Shown here one piece after another: positions 722-9,826 of a DNA stretch of 34,457 nt; position 1 is the first letter of the stretch, and the number at the start of each line of letters is the position of its first letter. The stretch comes from a virus. Lineage: Duplodnaviria > Heunggongvirae > Uroviricota > Caudoviricetes. Where the stretch lies: IMG/VR virus record IMGVR_UViG_2908572912_000001, positions 1 to 34,457 of that record; one strand, written 5' to 3'. The notes under the pieces were generated by a model. The model was not told the origin of the DNA and made no database searches. It saw nothing but the letters and a program-made list of their open reading frames with translations. The translations under genes were made by a program, and so were the position numbers.

Positions 722-753
722 ACTGATCCTACCCACGTAATATGGACACAGGC

Positions 754-1620
754 CTAAGCGAGGTTCTTGTTTTCAAATTGTTCCGGACTGAGGCCGCCAC
801 ACCAACTGTGCCGCCGCCACCGATTGTAATCACATTCGATATAATTAAACACCGTTGCCCGCATTATTTCCCGGCTGATAAAGTGTTCTCCATGGATACA
901 TTCCACTTTCAGCGAATGAAAGAAGCTTTCCACGCAGGCATTATCGTAGCAGCAACCTTTTGCGCTCATACTTCCACGCAGATTATGCCGCTTCAGTTGC
1001 GCCTGATAATCTGCTGAACAGTACTGGCCTCCACGGTCCGTGTGAACGATAACGTTCCGGGGCCTCTTACGCCGCCACAGCGCCATCTGCAGGGCATCGC
1101 AGGCCAGTTGCGCCGTCATGCGTGGCGACATTGACCAGCCAATAACGGCACGTGACCACAGGTCAATGACCACTGCCAGATACAGCCAGCCTTCATCTGT
1201 ACGTAAGTACGTGATGTCTCCTGCCCACTTCTGGTTCGGGCCACTGGCGTAAAAATCCTGCTCCAACAGATTTTCTGACACAGGCAGGCCGTGTGCGCGG
1301 TAGCTGACCGGGCTGAACTTCCGGGAGGCCTTTGCCCTCAGTCCCTGACGGCGCAGGCTTGCCGCCACGGTTTTTACGTTAAAGGGGTAACCCTGAGCAC
1401 GCAGTTCATCCGTCAGGCGTGGGGCACCGTAACGCTGTTTTGACCGGGTAAAAGCCGCGAGGACAACGCTGTCGCAGTGTTGGCGGAACTGCTGACGCGT
1501 GCTTATCCTTGTCCGCCGCTGACACCACGTATACCAGCCGCTGCGGGCCACCCGGAGCACGCGGCACATTGCTTTGATGCTGAACTCAGCCTGATGTTTT
1601 TCAATAAAGACATACTTCAT
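754..1620 (-). CDS. insF: IS3 transposase OrfB (InsF), DDE integrase domain, normally expressed by -1 frameshift with OrfA
   Basis: 288-aa ORF overlapping orfA 3' end; DDE-type motifs ([22 protein letters not shown]). Confidence 0.9.
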
Positions 1621-1916
1621 TTCAGGCGCTTCGCGAAGTATGTCGCGGCCTTTTGGAGGATAGCCAGCTCTTCATCCCGTTCTGCCAGCTGGCGTTTGAG
1701 ACGTGCAATCTCGGTAGACATCTCCAGTTCACGTTCAGAAGACGTCTGCTGATTTTGCTGTTTACTGCGCCAGTTGTAGAGTTGTGATTCATACAGGCTG
1801 AGTTCACGGGCTGCGGCAGTAACACCGATGCGTTCAGCAAGCTTCAGGGCTTCACTGCGAAATTCAGGCGAATGCTGTTTACGGGGTTTTTTACTGGTTG
1901 ATACTGTTTTTGTCAT
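1617..1916 (-). CDS. insE: IS3 transposase OrfA (InsE), HTH
   Basis: [32 protein letters not shown]... ; classic IS3 OrfA. Track ORF extends to 1925 by an upstream alternative start. Confidence 0.9.
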
Positions 1917-2202
1917 GTGAGTCACCTCTGACTGAGAGTTTACTCACTTAGCCGCGTGTCCACTATTGCTGGGTAAGATCAATTTCACCTTTATCCCGCC
2001 CCTTAGACAGAATGTTATAATCTGAACCCACAACAGCGTTTGTACCGGAGCTGGTCCGTTGCAAAATGCTCACCGGGAGAATTCAGATATTCCCTCTATC
2101 ACACTCTGTACATATCACAGCCAAAGGACAGACCAGATTGAAGTGGTAAAACCGATCGTGCACACTACGCAGTCTCACAACTAACAAGAGGTTATTATCC
2201 TG

Positions 2203-3732: not shown

Positions 3733-3900
3733 TTACATGTTTTCGATGATCGCTTCACCAAACTCTGAACATTTCAGCAGCTTAGCGCCTTCCATCAGAC
3801 GTTCGAAGTCATAAGTTACGGTCTTGGCATTGATTGCGCCTTCCATACCTTTAACAATCAGGTCAGCCGCTTCAGTCCAACCCATATGGCGCAGCAGTAT
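3733..3900 (-). pseudogene. icdC: Displaced 3' end of icd (isocitrate dehydrogenase), last 55 codons only = icdC-type prophage junction
   Basis: Translation [55 protein letters not shown] equals the Icd C-terminus; similarity stops abruptly at 3900. Confidence 0.9.
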
Positions 3901-4596: not shown

Positions 4597-5718
4597 TTAG
4601 TCATCAACCGCGACTCCTGCACAATCATGGGCTATTGCCAGCAATTGTTTTTTAATTGCTTTAGCATCTACCGTCATATCTACTGTAGCAAAATGGATCT
4701 TATGTCCCTGAGTGACAACATACTCATTAAGCATATAGCCAACAGCTGGATGAAGTAGAAGACCAGCGGCATTGAGCGAAAGCGGATCCGTCTTGTTCTC
4801 CTGTGTTCTAAGGTAGGTATATAGCTGATAAATATAGCCATTACGTAGTGATTGCTCCCGATGCCAACCCTTTGTCAGAATCGAATTAAATTTGGTATCG
4901 ATAATAATACGCCGCTGGGCAGTCTTGTGTTCCAGAATAATGTCTGACTTCATTGTCGGGAAAATCTCTGCACTACCTGCACTTTGATCGCTCAACGCCC
5001 ATTTCAGCTCTTTCCCTGCAGAGACCTGCCAAGTTGTTTTGGCAAGGTGTACACGATATAAGCCAGCGATACCTTTTTCAAATAGTCTTCTCATCCAGTA
5101 AAGGTTATTTGAGGGCGCAGGTAAAAGATATTGGCCTTGATCTTCGGTCGGCATCAGCAGTTCAAAAGCTAATCGTGCGGCATCGACCATCGGTTTATCT
5201 GCGGCATCATGGCGTCCAAAACGCCACACTGAGGGTAATTCGTGGGGGGCAGGATATCCTCCATTTATCCCCTCACGGCGAAGTGATATTGCCATAAAAT
5301 GGCAATCTGCCGCCAAAGACGGTTTCACTATGATTGAGGCCAGACGTTCTAACGCACAGCGAACATAGCGATTTCGGGGGGTGTTGAGGGTTATGTCTTG
5401 AAAATGGCAGGCAACCTGTCCCCGTTCCAGTAGTTGATGACTGGCAGTATACAGTATGTCAATGCGCCCTCTCACCCGGTTCAGGGCCGCATGACAAGTT
5501 TGGTATCCCATATTTAAATTGCGACGTCGGCGCAGCGTAATCTCATGAAGGAGGATTGTCGCCACCAGGTCGGGGATTTCTGCTGGGTTATCTTCTACTG
5601 CGATCTGATTGCGCCCTAACTGACGAAACAGATCTGAAGCGTACAGCATCAGCATCCAGATATTTCGCATGGGAATACGTGATGCTGTATGTTGCTCACT
5701 CCCGGTTATTGTCGTCAT
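4597..5718 (-). CDS. mcrC: McrC-like endonuclease subunit (PD-(D/E)xK) of a McrBC-type modification-dependent restriction system
   Basis: N-terminal IPMRNIWMLMLYA resembles McrC IPVRNIYYMLTYAW; C-terminal IIIDTKF...NGYIYQLYTYL matches the McrC nuclease motif (VDAKY...NLYQLMNYL). 4-bp overlap with upstream mcrB-like gene. Confidence 0.8.
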   Translation of the reverse strand: MTTITGSEQHTASRIPMRNIWMLMLYASDLFRQLGRNQIAVEDNPAEIPDLVATILLHEITLRRRRNLNMGYQTCHAALNRVRGRIDILYTASHQLLERGQVACHFQDITLNTPRNRYVRCALERLASIIVKPSLAADCHFMAISLRREGINGGYPAPHELPSVWRFGRHDAADKPMVDAARLAFELLMPTEDQGQYLLPAPSNNLYWMRRLFEKGIAGLYRVHLAKTTWQVSAGKELKWALSDQSAGSAEIFPTMKSDIILEHKTAQRRIIIDTKFNSILTKGWHREQSLRNGYIYQLYTYLRTQENKTDPLSLNAAGLLLHPAVGYMLNEYVVTQGHKIHFATVDMTVDAKAIKKQLLAIAHDCAGVAVDD

Positions 5719-7697
5719 TTTGCTAATAACACTTTTCTGGCTTCATCGACTTTATTTGGAGCATCGAACCAATATTCGGCGAGCAAAGGGCAGATCTCTG
5801 TATCAACGACTTGTTCATACCAAGCCTGGGCATCGTTGATTTTTTGGCCGATAGCTGGGGTGACATAGCTGTGACCGATACAAAACTGTGGTCCTAAGGT
5901 AACATCTTTTGCCAGCATATCGTTAAGTACCGTCAGTCGAGATTTGATGAATGCTAACATGTCAAAATCAATTGCGTAATTATAATTTACCCAGTTTCTC
6001 CACGCGTCATTAAAAGCTGGCTTTAGATCGATAAACGCGAAACGACGGCGCAGCGCTAGGTCAAGTAGTGCGAGTGAGCGGTCTGCAATATTCATCGTAC
6101 CGATGATATATAGATTCTCAGGAATGTATATTTTTTCATCATCATTTTTAGGATAGGAAAGAGATAATGCCTCAGTCGGCGTGCGTTTATCTGCTTCCAT
6201 CAACGTGAGTGTTTCACCGAAGATTTGCGCCGGATTGCCACGATTAATCTCTTCAATTATCACCACATATTTCGAGGTAGGATTATTGACTGCAGTTTTG
6301 ATTGCATTTACAAAAGGTCCATCAATTAGCGTCAATTGCCCTTCTTTACCTGGACGCCAGCCGCGAATAAAGTCTTCGTAAGAGAGGTTCGGGTGAAATT
6401 GCACCGCGCTAATACGCTCAGGTGCTTTTTCTCCCATCAAGCAGTACGCCAGACGTCGCGCTAACCAGGTTTTTCCAGTTCCGGGTGGTCCTTGTAATAT
6501 CAGGTTTTTCTTGTCGATCAGGCGCTGAAGTGTGAGTTGGATCTTAGCCTCTTCCAAGAAACAGCCATCCTGCACCAGATGACTGATGTCATAAGGAACG
6601 TGAGTGAGTTTTGGCAACGGCGCACTCTCTTCGACAGTTTCCTCAGTTATCGTCTGGGATTCGTTTTTCTCAAAATTCAGGTATTCATAATTTCCGGACT
6701 CAAGGGACTTTAACTCATCATCATTGCATAGTTTCTGTAGATAAAAGTAGATTGAGCTTGTAACTGTTTTGCTCTCAGGATGCTCTACCTTGAATACGTC
6801 CAAGTAGTTTTCTTCCAACTCCGAAGCAGTGAAATAAGGGCCATTTTTTTTCAGGCATAACGCCTTAATTTTATTCAGTAAAGAGGCTTTCCACGTTCTA
6901 TTTGCCACCTCATCTTTAGACTGGCTAAGATCTGTATTCCACGCTGATAAAGAAAGTTCTGGGAAAGAATGAACCGGATAGTTTGGTTGGGTAAAGACCT
7001 CGTTCAGCGCCCGCATAAGACTCAGGTAACTTTGTCCACTACAGCGACCTTTTGCCCCGTTTTTAATGATCTTAATGTTTAACACTGTCTGAATGTAATA
7101 CTGCGACTGGCTATCTAAAGTAGGGTAGAACCAAGGACGGGTCCAGTACAACCCCATGGTGAGATTCCAACCGACATTCATTACTGTAGAAGCGATGTCA
7201 TATGCGGCAGTGAAGTCTGCAGAGTTAGTATTCTGGTTATCCGCAAAGGTCATTGCCTGCGAGAACATTTCCCACAAGCATTCAATGTCATTAGGGTCGC
7301 GTGACTTTTCATAACCAAAGAACCAAGATTTTTGGTTATTCAACAGCGGGATTCCGGCAAAGGAGTCAGGAATCGGTTCGTTCACGCCCAACAAATTCGC
7401 TAGCTTGGCAGCAATAATTTTGCGATTGCTGTCGGTCAAGTTACGATTGAACAAGCCCATAGTAGTAAACGGACAAATGTCTTTTAAGGGAAAGATCTCT
7501 CCCATAATAGATTTGTCCTGCAGATGGGACATTCCTTCCACACCTGAGGCAATTAGATGAATACCTTTGACTAATTCATCTCTACGATTTCGCCAAGTCA
7601 GTAACGCGTTGGCAAAAGCCTCATAAAAACTAGCCCAAGCAAATTTGCCATCATGTTCTGCTGTATCCACGGGAACTCCATTATACTTGTTGAGCAA
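5715..7697 (-). CDS. mcrB: McrB-like AAA+ GTPase (C-terminal 270 aa) with a long, unrecognised N-terminal domain of about 390 aa
   Basis: C-terminal LILQGPPGTGKTWLARRLAYCL, VVIIEEINRGN, YIIGTMNIADRSLALLDLALRRRF align with EcoK McrB GTPase motifs; N-terminal region has no similarity I recognise. Confidence 0.8.
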   Translation of the reverse strand: MLNKYNGVPVDTAEHDGKFAWASFYEAFANALLTWRNRRDELVKGIHLIASGVEGMSHLQDKSIMGEIFPLKDICPFTTMGLFNRNLTDSNRKIIAAKLANLLGVNEPIPDSFAGIPLLNNQKSWFFGYEKSRDPNDIECLWEMFSQAMTFADNQNTNSADFTAAYDIASTVMNVGWNLTMGLYWTRPWFYPTLDSQSQYYIQTVLNIKIIKNGAKGRCSGQSYLSLMRALNEVFTQPNYPVHSFPELSLSAWNTDLSQSKDEVANRTWKASLLNKIKALCLKKNGPYFTASELEENYLDVFKVEHPESKTVTSSIYFYLQKLCNDDELKSLESGNYEYLNFEKNESQTITEETVEESAPLPKLTHVPYDISHLVQDGCFLEEAKIQLTLQRLIDKKNLILQGPPGTGKTWLARRLAYCLMGEKAPERISAVQFHPNLSYEDFIRGWRPGKEGQLTLIDGPFVNAIKTAVNNPTSKYVVIIEEINRGNPAQIFGETLTLMEADKRTPTEALSLSYPKNDDEKIYIPENLYIIGTMNIADRSLALLDLALRRRFAFIDLKPAFNDAWRNWVNYNYAIDFDMLAFIKSRLTVLNDMLAKDVTLGPQFCIGHSYVTPAIGQKINDAQAWYEQVVDTEICPLLAEYWFDAPNKVDEARKVLLAK

Positions 7698-8039
7698 TGA
7701 TAATTTATCTGTGTGAGTTTTAACATATTACTATCAGTTATAGAAAAATTTAACTACCCGATACAGAGAGCGGCATGCTGAATTTGACCTGACTTGCTTC
7801 CAACCAATTAAAATCAACTTATTTATCAATTGGTTATTTTGGCGCATAGCGGTCATCAAGGGAATATCGCGTTGTCATAAGGTGTCGAGGCTCGGAGGTT
7901 CAAATCCTCTCATGCAAAAAATAAATAAAATTAATGACGGTTGGAAATTATTCAATACATACACTCTCGAAAGTGCATCAACCAACCGCAGCACGTCTTG
8001 CATACGGCGTGTCTGCAGTTTTATATAATCCTGGCTGGA

Positions 8040-8262
8040 AACCTCTTATACAAAGTCGATACACCAATATCATAGATGATCGCCACCTTCTGACGCGGGA
8101 CTTTTGATGCAATTAATCGCCCGGCCTGCGCCCATTGTTCTGATGTAAGTTTAGGACGACGTCCACCAATTCCTCCCTGTGCGCGAGCATCTTCCAGTCC
8201 AACTTTTGTTCAGTCATCAATCAGTTCACGCTTCATTTCAACCAGGGCTCCATCACATGGAA
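8040..8262 (-). pseudogene. pin: pin-type DNA invertase (serine recombinase) 3' fragment with internal stop
   Basis: Minus-strand translation ...GALVEMKRELIDD* then ...GLEDARAQGGIGGRRPKLTSEQWAQAGRLIA..PRQKVAIIYDIGVSTLYKRFPA matches the Hin/Gin/Pin C-terminal HTH region; N-terminal catalytic domain absent. Confidence 0.6.
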
Positions 8263-8737
8263 AAATAAAAAAAAACCATCGATGTTGACGTGTCAATGTT
8301 ACCTGTCAGGCTACGGAAATCCCCCCCCTTACCCGCAGCTACTCGGTAAGTATAATAAGATGTTTCCTGCTCCTTCCTAACCTGTCCAGTTTCCAGACAA
8401 TTAAAGTATCACCTTATATAAGAGACTGCAGAGCGCACTTTAACCTAGGTCGTTCTGAAATAGTTGCAGATTCGATTAATCAACGATTATACTCCCCGGC
8501 ACTCCAGAGGATCTGGTAAACATAAAGTCAGAGCTTGGGTATACTGGCACACAAATGGCAGATCTTGCAGGTGCAGCCAGTCATAGCCAGTGGCGAAAAT
8601 ACACGAGTGGTTCTGAGCCCCGCGCCATGTCATCACATATCTTGTTTTTTTATTGCTACCAATCTGACTTTGAGTACTAATGAGCTAGATAGAATTGTTT
8701 GTAAAATAAAAAAAATTGGAACAGTGATTATATAAAA

Positions 8738-9826
8738 ATGAAGAAGGTAAAATCAATTCACTATTTGCGAGGTGTAGCAGCATTACTCGTTGTTGCATAT
8801 CACAATAAACAATACCTAAATGAAGTTTACGCACAAAAAGATCTAGGTGATTTATTGTTTATTAGTGGTGGTTTTGGGGTTGATCTGTTTTTTATTATAA
8901 GTGGATTTATAATAATGTTATCGAGTCAAAAAAAAGAAACAAATTCCCCTATTAACTTTATGACCAGGCGTTTTTTCAGGATTTACCCTGTATTTTTCAT
9001 TTGCACAATCTTATTCTTTTTATTGAACCCAGTCTTCACCGAAAGTGAATTATTGCGTTCATTGTTTCTGCTTCACCTGGACTATTATTCAGAAGCGCCA
9101 TTCTTCGGATACAACGTGCTTTATCCAGCATGGACATTAACCTTTGAAGTCTATTTTTATTTCATTTTTATGCTTGCAATATCGCTGAGTCATAAAAACA
9201 GATTATTAATATCAGTTATTGCATTGATAGTCCCGCTACTTCTCATACAGTTGAAATTTTCCAACAGCCTTTCTCTATCAAGTAAGTTTACGATTGGTGA
9301 TACAGGTCATTGGCATATTGGCTTTCTAAACTTAATGTCATCACCCATGCTGTTAGAATTCGTTTATGGGATGTTTCTGTATATAATACACAGAAAATTT
9401 AAATATATAAAAAACGCAAAGGCGATATCATTCCTTTTGGTTTCATTTGGTGTTTGCTCATATTTTTATCAATTCAGATTTGGTCATGGCCCTTTAAACT
9501 TCGGATTGTGGGCAGCCTCCATAATTACGGGAGTTTTACTTTATGAAGTTAACTTCGGATTAAGGGAAAATAAAATACTCAGTAAGCTAGGTGATATCTC
9601 TTACTCTCTGTATTTATCCCATGCGATAGTAATGCTATTTTTAATTAATTTTAAGGATTTCATTCCGCTTTATGAAAAACCTGGGTTCTCTAAGTTTTCA
9701 TTCATTATTGCTCTTAGCTTGTTCTTATCATTCTTTATTTATAAATATATTGAAACTCCATTCATTAATATCGGAAAAACAATATCCAAAAGACTTTCAA
9801 AACCAACATTAACTTATAGCGAATAG
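8738..9826 (+). CDS. Acyltransferase family 3 integral membrane protein (OafA/Oac-like O-acyltransferase), AT-rich cargo gene
   Basis: 362 aa, about 10 hydrophobic segments, N-terminal YLRGVAALLVVAYH and FFIISGF motifs typical of acyltransferase-3; very low GC relative to neighbours. Confidence 0.75.
   Translation: MKKVKSIHYLRGVAALLVVAYHNKQYLNEVYAQKDLGDLLFISGGFGVDLFFIISGFIIMLSSQKKETNSPINFMTRRFFRIYPVFFICTILFFLLNPVFTESELLRSLFLLHLDYYSEAPFFGYNVLYPAWTLTFEVYFYFIFMLAISLSHKNRLLISVIALIVPLLLIQLKFSNSLSLSSKFTIGDTGHWHIGFLNLMSSPMLLEFVYGMFLYIIHRKFKYIKNAKAISFLLVSFGVCSYFYQFRFGHGPLNFGLWAASIITGVLLYEVNFGLRENKILSKLGDISYSLYLSHAIVMLFLINFKDFIPLYEKPGFSKFSFIIALSLFLSFFIYKYIETPFINIGKTISKRLSKPTLTYSE

What the first reader, a model, noticed from the sequence alone, without database searches (positions are those of the whole stretch)
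4597..7697. McrBC-like type IV restriction pair with a ~390-aa unrecognised N-terminal domain on the McrB GTPase
The GTPase and McrC parts are clearly homologous to EcoKMcrBC, but the McrB N-terminal DNA-reader domain is more than twice the size of the EcoK m5C-binding domain and unrelated to it by eye. Specificity of McrB-family enzymes is set by this domain, so this may recognise a different modification. The pair occupies the place next to icdC where e14 carries mcrA.
Basis: partly seen in the sequence, partly recalled or inferred. Interest (0 to 1): 0.65.

Follow-up and report, generated by a model that had tools for sequence, protein, structure and literature searches.

The report
McrBC-type restriction pair, unusual sensor
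A prophage in E. coli carries an intact two-gene McrBC-type DNA restriction system whose DNA-sensing end is not the usual methylcytosine reader but two other modules (a domain of unknown function that looks faintly like a DNA-repair glycosylase, plus a DpnI-like winged helix), so it probably attacks DNA carrying some other base modification; the design has been noted in two papers but never tested.

Summary
Window 5715-7670(-) encodes a 651-aa McrB-type GTPase and 4597-5718(-) a 373-aa McrC nuclease, translationally coupled by an ATGA overlap, with all catalytic motifs intact. They lie between a decayed pin gene and icdC, where e14 of K-12 carries mcrA.

The "~390-aa unrecognised domain" is two modules plus a disordered linker.
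- **Residues 1-245** are Pfam DUF8425 (PF28527, absent from the local Pfam copy). The fold is confidently predicted and helical. Its only structural neighbours are Ogg/OGG1/MutY HhH-GPD glycosylases, at non-significant scores.
- **Residues ~255-335** are a winged helix homologous to the DpnI C-terminal domain. Four of DpnI's five methyl-pocket residues are replaced.

DUF8425 is a large family (2319 clusters at 50% identity). It is nearly always fused to McrB and followed by the same McrC subtype, and occasionally fused to other effectors. It therefore behaves as a portable DNA sensor.

The architecture was already flagged as "NTD-wH-NTPase + McrC" (PMC11037411), and "iEndoIII-McrB" fusions were mentioned in PMC12191111. 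Neither was characterised.

Most likely this is a GTP-dependent, modification-dependent restriction system aimed at something other than host Dam or Dcm marks. It is a new variant of a known kind, of moderate interest.

The parts
5715..7670 (-). mcrB-like gene (651 aa from GTG 7670; the longest ORF starts at TTG 7697; stop codon at 5715-5717)
   Evidence: ORF list. RefSeq CDS 'AAA family ATPase' WP_000379042.1. GGAG at 7679-7676 precedes the GTG. Orthologues are 650-651 aa.
6936..7670 (-). N-terminal module, residues 1-245: Pfam DUF8425 (PF28527), an all-helical domain with a weak Ogg/EndoIII-like (HhH-GPD) resemblance. Conserved motif V166-G-W-N169...L185-D186.
6666..6908 (-). Winged-helix module, residues ~255-335, homologous to the DpnI C-terminal (DpnI_C, PF17726) domain. 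Recognition helix is residues 303-316.
6576..6665 (-). Acidic, disordered linker (residues ~336-365) between the sensor modules and the motor
   Evidence: pLDDT <50 for residues 337-357. Relatives have variable acidic linkers in the same place.
5718..6575 (-). McrB AAA+ GTPase plus lid (residues 366-651). Walker A G394-T401 (GPPGTGKT), Walker B E473-E474, NxxD N527-D530, arginines R541-R543.
   Evidence: 47% identity to EcoK McrB 178-457. Pfam AAA_5 E 3.5e-27. PF28529 McrB_lid. PDB 6hz4/6ut6 E ~1e-77.
4597..5718 (-). mcrC-like gene (373 aa; the ATG at 5718 overlaps the mcrB stop as ATGA; RefSeq in one strain starts at 5670). PD-(D/E)xK residues D259, D274, K276.
   Evidence: NCBIfam McrC equivalog passed. 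Pfam McrBC. 24% identity to EcoK McrC over the full length, with D244/D257/K259 aligned. The 373-aa form is called in MRE162 RefSeq and in a Logan contig.
3733..3900 (-). icd' pseudogene (icdC-type duplicate) marking the prophage end next to the pair
   Evidence: RefSeq annotation of the identical locus in CV839-06, compared with K-12 icdC.
8021..8470 (-). Decayed pin-type recombinase gene upstream of the pair (the e14 pinE position)
   Evidence: RefSeq: 'recombinase family protein, frameshifted; internal stop; incomplete'. K-12 order is pinE-mcrA-icdC.

Best explanation
This is a functional, prophage-borne McrBC-family type IV (modification-dependent) restriction system with a non-canonical sensor end.

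Proposed mechanism:
- The McrB-like subunit should form GTP-bound AAA+ hexamers, and McrC should insert into the ring and stimulate GTP hydrolysis.
- DNA-bound complexes translocate, and the McrC PD-(D/E)xK site cuts the DNA.
- Target choice is made by the N-terminal 335 residues. These comprise DUF8425, most likely a glycosylase-derived (Ogg/EndoIII-like) module that probes bases, and a DpnI-type winged helix that contacts the major groove.
- The host is Dam+ (and usually Dcm+) and tolerates the system, and the winged helix has lost DpnI's G6mATC pocket residues. The target is therefore probably some other, phage-type base modification rather than G6mATC or CmCWGG.

Shown here: domain composition, intact motifs, gene coupling, family-wide linkage to McrC, and conservation.
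Inferred: GTP dependence, cleavage, the sensor role of DUF8425 and the nature of the target.
For: Motor and nuclease:
- Intact motifs and homology: Walker A, Walker B, NxxD and RRR in McrB; D259/D274/K276 in McrC aligned to EcoK D244/D257/K259.
- The McrC equivalog cut-off is passed.
- ATGA start/stop overlap.

Conservation:
- The pair is intact at >=99% identity in 288 of 5426 complete E. coli genomes, even where the surrounding prophage is decayed.
- Orthologues at 69-89% identity occur in seven other enterobacterial genera.

Family-wide behaviour of DUF8425:
- The profile finds 2319 clusters; 50 of 54 sampled carry AAA_5.
- In 70 of the 80 species loci fetched, an McrC of this same subtype lies downstream on the same strand (phmmer E 1e-89 to 1e-228 for full-length copies). 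In 65 of them it overlaps or follows the gene within 8 nt. The 10 loci without it end at or within about 1.2 kb of the gene.
- DUF8425 also occurs fused to an McrC-like nuclease, a KAP NTPase and an FRG domain. It occurs in tandem, and next to HARE-HTH, Mrr_N, HTH_24 or DpnI_C winged helices. This is the behaviour of a portable DNA sensor.

Fold evidence:
- Structural neighbours are only HhH-GPD glycosylases.
- The winged helix is homologous to DpnI_C.
- DpnI pocket residues E228/K229/R231/Q232/Q235 correspond here to S305/S306/Y308/F309/Q312 (DpnI residues from PMC3424567).

Precedent:
- An inactivated EndoIII/Ogg1-like domain acts as a broad sensor of hypermodified bases in END nucleases and is reported fused to McrB-like GTPases (PMC12191111).
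Against: - There is no experimental datum for this system or for any DUF8425 protein. No paper mentions DUF8425 or WP_000379042.
- Sequence and profile searches found no HhH-GPD match: hmmsearch against PDB, Pfam on 27 family members, and hhalign against E. coli Nth.
- Homology to the END-nuclease sensor could not be tested, because no END sequence was obtainable.
- No convincing promoter was found upstream, so expression is unproven.
- Walker B has E473 where EcoK has D279.
Confidence: 0.7

Rival explanations
1. DUF8425 is a catalytically active monofunctional DNA glycosylase. It excises the modified base, and McrBC then acts on, or is recruited to, the abasic or nicked DNA. This would make the system a glycosylase-coupled restriction system rather than a pure reader-plus-nuclease.
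For: - The only structural neighbours are HhH-GPD glycosylases.
- The predicted topology is helix 150-160, hairpin, helix 169-177, Pro/aromatic loop, then D186 capping helix 187-196. This matches the helix-hairpin-helix / loop / Asp layout.
- That column is Asp or Glu in 93 of 96 members. The column at the EndoIII-Lys position is Asn in 69 and Lys in 16.
- Stand-alone anti-phage glycosylases exist (Brig1 and Brig3, cited in PMC13160076).
Against: - The equivalence of D186 with the catalytic Asp rests on pattern and spacing only. No superposition was possible.
- hhalign paired the GVGW..GLY motif with a different Nth segment, at a non-significant score.
- The related sensor in END nucleases is reported to be catalytically dead.
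- A conserved Asp can simply be a helix cap.
- The presence of an intact McrC nuclease makes excision unnecessary.
Confidence: 0.12
2. The system reads N6-methyladenine in the Dam (G6mATC) context through its DpnI-type winged helix, as proposed generically for wH fusion enzymes.
For: - The winged helix is homologous to the DpnI 6mA-reading domain.
- NTD-wH-NTPase/McrC pairs were listed among putative 6mA-dependent type IV systems (PMC11037411).
Against: - Only 1 of the 5 DpnI methyl-pocket and sequence-reading residues is kept.
- Only about 10% of wH fusions carry that motif.
- The pair is stably carried by Dam+ hosts: E. coli, Citrobacter, Enterobacter, Serratia and Erwinia (Dam status is from general knowledge).
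- Most DUF8425-McrB proteins have no winged helix at all, so it cannot be the core sensor.
Confidence: 0.07
3. The system is a sequence-specific, modification-independent McrBC relative of the LlaJI/LlaI/BsuMI type, which cuts unmodified sites and needs a cognate methyltransferase.
For: Non-canonical McrBC homologues of this kind exist (bioRxiv 10.64898/2026.08.31.748284, abstract). Winged helices can read sequence.
Against: - No methyltransferase is annotated within 15 kb of the pair on either side in CV839-06 or MRE162.
- The organisation is two genes, not three.
- Without a protecting methylase, such a system would be lethal to the 288 genomes that carry it.
Confidence: 0.04
4. The pair is silent or decaying prophage cargo with no current function.
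For: - The neighbouring pin gene, tail fibre genes and much of the prophage are pseudogenised.
- No clear sigma-70 promoter was found upstream.
Against: - Both ORFs are intact with all catalytic motifs.
- They are identical or nearly identical in 288 genomes, while the flanking prophage genes decay differently in different strains.
- Only one IS-disrupted copy appears among the 30 records sampled across the ranking.
- Orthologues are intact across genera.
Confidence: 0.05

Closest known systems
EcoKMcrBC (E. coli K-12 mcrB/mcrC, type IV restriction)
   Same: - Two overlapping genes in the order B then C.
- AAA+ GTPase with Walker A, Walker B, NxxD and Arg motifs, 47% identical.
- McrC with the DUF2357-type N-terminal part and a PD-D-x-K nuclease.
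   Different: - The N-terminal DNA reader is unrelated. It has no DUF3578/ADAM domain and carries DUF8425 plus a winged helix instead.
- McrC is only 24% identical.
- The location is a prophage end at icd, not the immigration control region.
- No internal Met that could give an McrB-S-like short form is visible by eye in the linker (residues ~337-376); this was not examined further.
'NTD-wH-NTPase' fusions paired with McrC (Helbrecht et al. 2024, PMC11037411)
   Same: [quoted passage not shown]
   Different: - That class was only listed; one purification attempt failed and no activity data exist.
- Whether the E. coli protein was in their set could not be checked.
- The present work identifies the NTD as DUF8425 and shows that most family members lack the winged helix.
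END nucleases and 'iEndoIII' sensor fusions (Yee et al. 2025 preprint, PMC12191111)
   Same: - A sensor with an Ogg1/EndoIII-like fold is coupled to a restriction effector.
- The authors state the sensor also occurs fused to an McrB-like GTPase.
- The systems are stand-alone, with no methyltransferase.
   Different: - END nucleases are single-chain PLD nucleases with the sensor at the C-terminus.
- Their sensor is detected by HHpred, whereas DUF8425 gave no profile hit here.
- Their sensor lacks the catalytic residues, whereas DUF8425 keeps an acidic residue at the putative Asp position.
- Direct homology was not testable.
R.DpnI C-terminal winged helix (PDB 4esj/4kyw)
   Different: - Pocket residues E228, K229, R231 and Q232 are replaced by S305, S306, Y308 and F309.
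- These recognition-helix positions vary even among close enterobacterial orthologues.
- The host is Dam+.
EcoKMcrA of e14
   Same: Same genomic slot (between pin and icdC at the end of an icd-integrated prophage) and the same general role as a type IV restriction cargo gene.
   Different: Unrelated proteins. McrA is a single-chain HNH enzyme.

Membership tests
McrBC type IV restriction system | McrB-type AAA+ GTPase with Walker A, Walker B, the NxxD signature and arginine fingers | tested here: met
   GPPGTGKT at 394-401, EE at 473-474 (EcoK has DE), NIAD at 527-530, RRR at 541-543. 47% identity to EcoK McrB, E 4e-83. AAA_5 plus McrB_lid. The NCBIfam McrB equivalog cut-off is not reached (265 < 637 bits), because the N-terminus differs.
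McrBC type IV restriction system | Partner McrC with a PD-(D/E)xK nuclease, encoded immediately downstream | tested here: met
   NCBIfam McrC equivalog 355.6 > 338 bits. D259/D274/K276 align with EcoK D244/D257/K259. ATGA overlap. The same linkage holds in 70 of the 80 species loci examined; the other 10 are cut at or close to the gene's end.
McrBC type IV restriction system | GTP-dependent cleavage of modified DNA only | not testable with these tools
   This needs biochemistry or phage and plasmid challenge. The absence of a nearby methyltransferase is consistent with it.
EcoK-type McrB N-terminal 5mC reader (DUF3578/ADAM, PF12102) | Sequence similarity of the N-terminal domain | tested here: not met
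   No Pfam hit in residues 1-377 at E <= 10 other than weak DpnI_C. BLASTP against EcoK McrB gives only noise outside the GTPase.
Pfam DUF8425 (PF28527) | Match to the family model | tested here: met
   Precomputed Pfam hits for the 99%-identical cluster representative P0001 and for all homologues. The model is not in the local Pfam copy, so there was no independent rescoring.
DpnI_C winged helix (PF17726) | Winged-helix fold and sequence homology to DpnI residues ~185-254 | tested here: met
DpnI_C winged helix (PF17726) | DpnI methyl-pocket / G6mATC-reading residues (E228, K229, R231, Q232, Q235) | tested here: not met
   The equivalents are S305, S306, Y308, F309 and Q312, so only the last is kept.
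HhH-GPD DNA glycosylase superfamily (EndoIII/Ogg/MutY) | Two-lobed helical fold | tested here: inconclusive
HhH-GPD DNA glycosylase superfamily (EndoIII/Ogg/MutY) | Helix-hairpin-helix followed by a Gly/Pro-rich loop and the catalytic Asp | tested here: inconclusive
   A pattern with compatible spacing and a conserved acidic residue is present (V166-G-W-N169 ... D186). There is no superposition and no significant profile alignment.
END nucleases (PLD nuclease + iEndoIII sensor) | N-terminal PLD (HxK) nuclease domain | tested here: not met
   No PLD domain. The effector is McrB GTPase plus McrC.
END nucleases (PLD nuclease + iEndoIII sensor) | Sensor domain homologous to the END C-terminal iEndoIII domain | not tested
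   No END sequence could be obtained (no supplementary text held). tblastn of the N-terminus against plasmids and phages found no PLD fusion.

The most novel reading that the evidence does not exclude
[quoted passage not shown] In the enterobacterial proteins it works together with the diverged DpnI-type winged helix as a two-reader gate. McrBC would then fire only on DNA that carries a phage-type hypermodification, even against a Dam-methylated background. That would make this the founding characterised member of a very large, phylum-spanning McrBC subfamily (2319 clusters) with a new recognition principle.
Probability: 0.12. Interest if true: 0.8.

Novelty: new variant of a known kind. Interest (0 to 1): 0.5.

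Why it matters
McrBC systems differ mainly in which modification they read. Here a very large, uncharacterised branch has a representative in about 5% of complete E. coli genomes (288 of 5426), in a genetically tractable host and in a well-known prophage cargo slot. The branch is defined by DUF8425 and spans at least 355 species (a lower bound from a two-pattern scan) and many phyla.

If DUF8425 is a glycosylase-derived sensor, three things follow:
- It would extend the recently proposed use of repair-enzyme folds as sensors of hypermodified phage DNA to motor-driven restriction.
- It would give a function to a Pfam DUF.
- It could yield new reagents for mapping modified bases.

It also poses a concrete question: how does a DpnI-type winged helix coexist with Dam?

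Tried and rejected
**Searches on the N-terminus that found nothing**
- Local Pfam, NCBIfam, PADLOC and PHROGs on the whole protein and on residues 1-240 and 241-377 found only a sub-threshold DpnI_C hit.
- phmmer and hmmsearch against PDB sequences with the N-terminus and with a 17-sequence DUF8425 profile gave no hit.
- Pfam on 17 close and 10 divergent DUF8425 sequences at E <= 10 gave no HhH-GPD or OGG family. There were only stray hits. DUF6932 appeared in 3 members. DUF6308 reached E 4e-9 on one double-domain protein, over the motif region.
- hhalign of the DUF8425 profile (Neff 2.1 and 4.95) against E. coli Nth was not significant. It paired the motif with a different Nth segment.

**Resources that were unavailable**
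- The AlphaFold-database fold libraries were not available.
- I tried to obtain END nuclease sequences for a direct comparison. No supplementary text is held.
- tblastn against phage records gave no match, and tblastn against plasmids gave no PLD fusion.

**Other negative results**
- The ~165-aa extra N-terminal domain of non-enteric relatives has no Pfam or PDB hit.
- The promoter and terminator scan was no better than shuffles.
- tRNA and Rfam scans of the region found nothing relevant.

**Readings rejected**
- EcoK-type 5mC reader: no similarity.
- PADLOC-listed defence system other than generic REase/AAA hits: none, and McrC had no PADLOC hit at all.
Full report
**What is there**

The window is E. 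coli chromosome. The segment 4400-8000 is 100% identical to strain CV839-06 and is present in 317 of 5426 complete E. coli genomes, in 288 of them at >=99% identity and full length. Two minus-strand ORFs occupy the stated interval.

- The upstream ORF most likely starts at GTG 7670. This codon lies 5 nt after GGAG and gives 651 aa, as annotated in RefSeq ('AAA family ATPase') and as in its orthologues.
- The downstream ORF starts at ATG 5718, which overlaps the upstream stop as ATGA, and gives 373 aa. This form is annotated in strain MRE162 and called on an independent contig. The alignment to EcoK McrC begins two residues before the alternative RefSeq start.

**The motor and the nuclease are canonical**

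- Residues 371-650 are 47% identical to EcoK McrB 178-457 (E 4e-83). They match the solved EcoK McrB structures at E ~1e-77.
- Walker A (G394-T401), Walker B (E473-E474; EcoK has D-E), the McrB-specific NxxD motif (N527-D530) and the arginine cluster (R541-R543) are all present.
- The second protein passes NCBI's McrC equivalog cut-off. It is 24% identical to EcoK McrC end to end, and D259, D274 and K276 align with the catalytic D244, D257 and K259.

**The N-terminal region is two modules, not one**

An AlphaFold2 model of residues 1-377, built on 60 homologues, has pLDDT 86. It shows a helical domain, a long helix leading into a winged helix, and a disordered stretch at 337-357.

DpnI's methyl-pocket and GATC-reading residues are E228, K229, R231, Q232 and Q235 (PMC3424567). 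They correspond here to S305, S306, Y308, F309 and Q312, so the G6mATC-reading motif is not conserved. These positions differ even among close enterobacterial orthologues.

**Residues 1-245 are Pfam DUF8425**

The local Pfam copy lacks this model, but precomputed annotations name it PF28527:DUF8425. They name the C-terminal piece PF28529:McrB_lid.

Modelled alone on 100 homologues, the domain is very confident (pLDDT 93.6, pTM 0.92). Even so, it has no close structural relative.

- Foldseek against the PDB finds nothing significant (best E 0.26). All but two of the 50 hits listed are Ogg/OGG1/MutY chains, from five distinct proteins.

The sequence has a motif, V166-G-W-N169 ... L185-D186. In the model it lies as helix, hairpin, helix, Pro/aromatic loop, then an acidic residue capping the next helix. 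That is the layout of the helix-hairpin-helix/GPD element. Across 96 diverse family members the D186 column is Asp in 83 and Glu in 10. The column at the EndoIII lysine position is Asn in 69 and Lys in 16.

I could not superpose structures. No sequence or profile method supported the relationship. The glycosylase-like assignment is therefore tentative.

**Family behaviour**

- A DUF8425 profile finds 2319 clusters (50% identity) at E <= 1e-3 and 751 at E <= 1e-30. Of 54 sampled, 50 carry AAA_5.
- A scan of one genome per species found 355 species across many phyla.
- In 70 of the 80 loci fetched, an McrC of this same subtype lies downstream on the same strand (E 1e-89 to 1e-228 to ours for full-length copies, versus E 1e-13 for EcoK McrC). 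In 65 of them it overlaps or directly follows the DUF8425-McrB gene. The 10 loci without it end at or near that gene.
- Enterobacterial proteins are DUF8425-wH-GTPase. Most others carry an extra ~165-aa N-terminal domain of unknown type and no winged helix. Some have both.
- Rarer arrangements are: DUF8425 fused to an McrC-like nuclease, to a KAP NTPase or to an FRG domain; tandem DUF8425 copies; and neighbours such as HARE-HTH, Mrr_N or HTH_24.
- One member sits beside a type I R-M system in the ICE R997.

This is how a portable DNA or modification sensor of restriction systems behaves.

**Context**

In K-12 the e14 end reads pinE-mcrA-icdC-iraM. Here it reads pin pseudogene, mcrB-like, mcrC, icd' pseudogene, iraM. 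The pair therefore occupies the mcrA slot of an icd-integrated lambdoid prophage.

In other strains the prophage is decayed in different ways while the pair stays intact. No methyltransferase is annotated within 15 kb. The N-terminal region has no match in the phage genome collection.

**Literature**

- Helbrecht et al. 2024 (PMC11037411) list 'NTD-wH-NTPase' fusions paired with McrC as putative type IV systems. They report one failed purification attempt and no activity data. They also note that only about 10% of wH fusions keep the DpnI motif.
- Yee et al. 2025 (PMC12191111) show that an inactivated EndoIII/Ogg1-like domain is the sensor of PLD 'END' nucleases, which restrict phages with many different hypermodified bases. 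They mention the same sensor fused to an McrB-like GTPase, untested.
- Nothing mentions DUF8425 or this protein's accession.

**Interpretation**

The best-supported reading is a working, GTP-dependent, modification-dependent restriction system. Its specificity is set by DUF8425, probably a repair-glycosylase-derived base probe, and is assisted in enterobacteria by a diverged DpnI-type winged helix.

The hosts are Dam+ (general knowledge) and the DpnI pocket is lost. The target is therefore unlikely to be G6mATC. A phage-type modification is more likely, but which one cannot be inferred.

Rivals are, in order of weight:
- an active glycosylase;
- Dam-6mA reading;
- a sequence-specific LlaJI-like enzyme;
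- dead cargo.

All four are less likely, for the reasons given under each.

**Verdict**

The finding is a new variant of a known kind. It has been noticed in outline by others and never characterised, and it is directly testable in E. coli.

Noticed in passing
window 724-1981: An IS3-family insertion sequence (ORFs 1617-1925 and 754-1620, minus strand) lies in the bluF-bluR region. It is 99.8% identical to IS3 copies on E. coli plasmids. The reference strains CV839-06 and K-12 lack it at this site.
   Followed up: partly
window 8021-8470 (-): A pin-type invertase gene is reduced to a frameshifted fragment with an internal stop, with homopolymer runs (G8, T9) in the sequence. It marks the e14-like pinE position just upstream of the pair.
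   Followed up: partly
window 8738-9826 (+): A low-GC (~34%) acyltransferase-family gene lies between the pin remnant and the tail-fibre genes. It is another likely prophage cargo gene (an O-antigen-modifying type?).
   Followed up: no
window ~7881-7911 (+): The sequence GGTGTCGAGGCTCGGAGGTTCAAATCCTCTC looks like the T-arm and 3' part of a tRNA. It lies in the non-coding stretch upstream of the mcrB-like gene. ARAGORN and Rfam report nothing, so it may be an old attachment-site remnant.
   Followed up: partly
L014-L027 and others (e.g. P0028 residues 1-165): Most non-enterobacterial DUF8425-McrB proteins carry an extra ~165-aa N-terminal domain (WFVGATYGG..DQ..F..G.WENGY...VGDRIAIK...). It has no Pfam or PDB sequence match. 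It may be a second, uncharacterised reader.
   Followed up: partly
P0239, P0264, P0139, P0253, P0126/P0236/P0121/P0123; L004 4998-6482: DUF8425 also occurs fused to an McrC-like nuclease, a KAP P-loop NTPase, HARE-HTH repeats, Mrr_N and an FRG domain, and as tandem copies. In one tandem protein the motif region hits Pfam DUF6308 at E 4e-9, which suggests that DUF is related.
   Followed up: partly
L005 (Proteus mirabilis ICE R997, 5527-8852): A DUF8425-McrB/McrC pair sits in a cluster with a type I R-M system, a BstXI-family endonuclease and another restriction endonuclease, next to the MobH relaxase. This is a defence hotspot of an SXT/R391-type element.
   Followed up: no
NZ_CP183338.1 (hit H76): One E. 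coli strain (EC6030) has an IS2 inserted within the mcrB-like/mcrC segment. It is the only disrupted copy among the 30 records sampled across the ranking.
   Followed up: no
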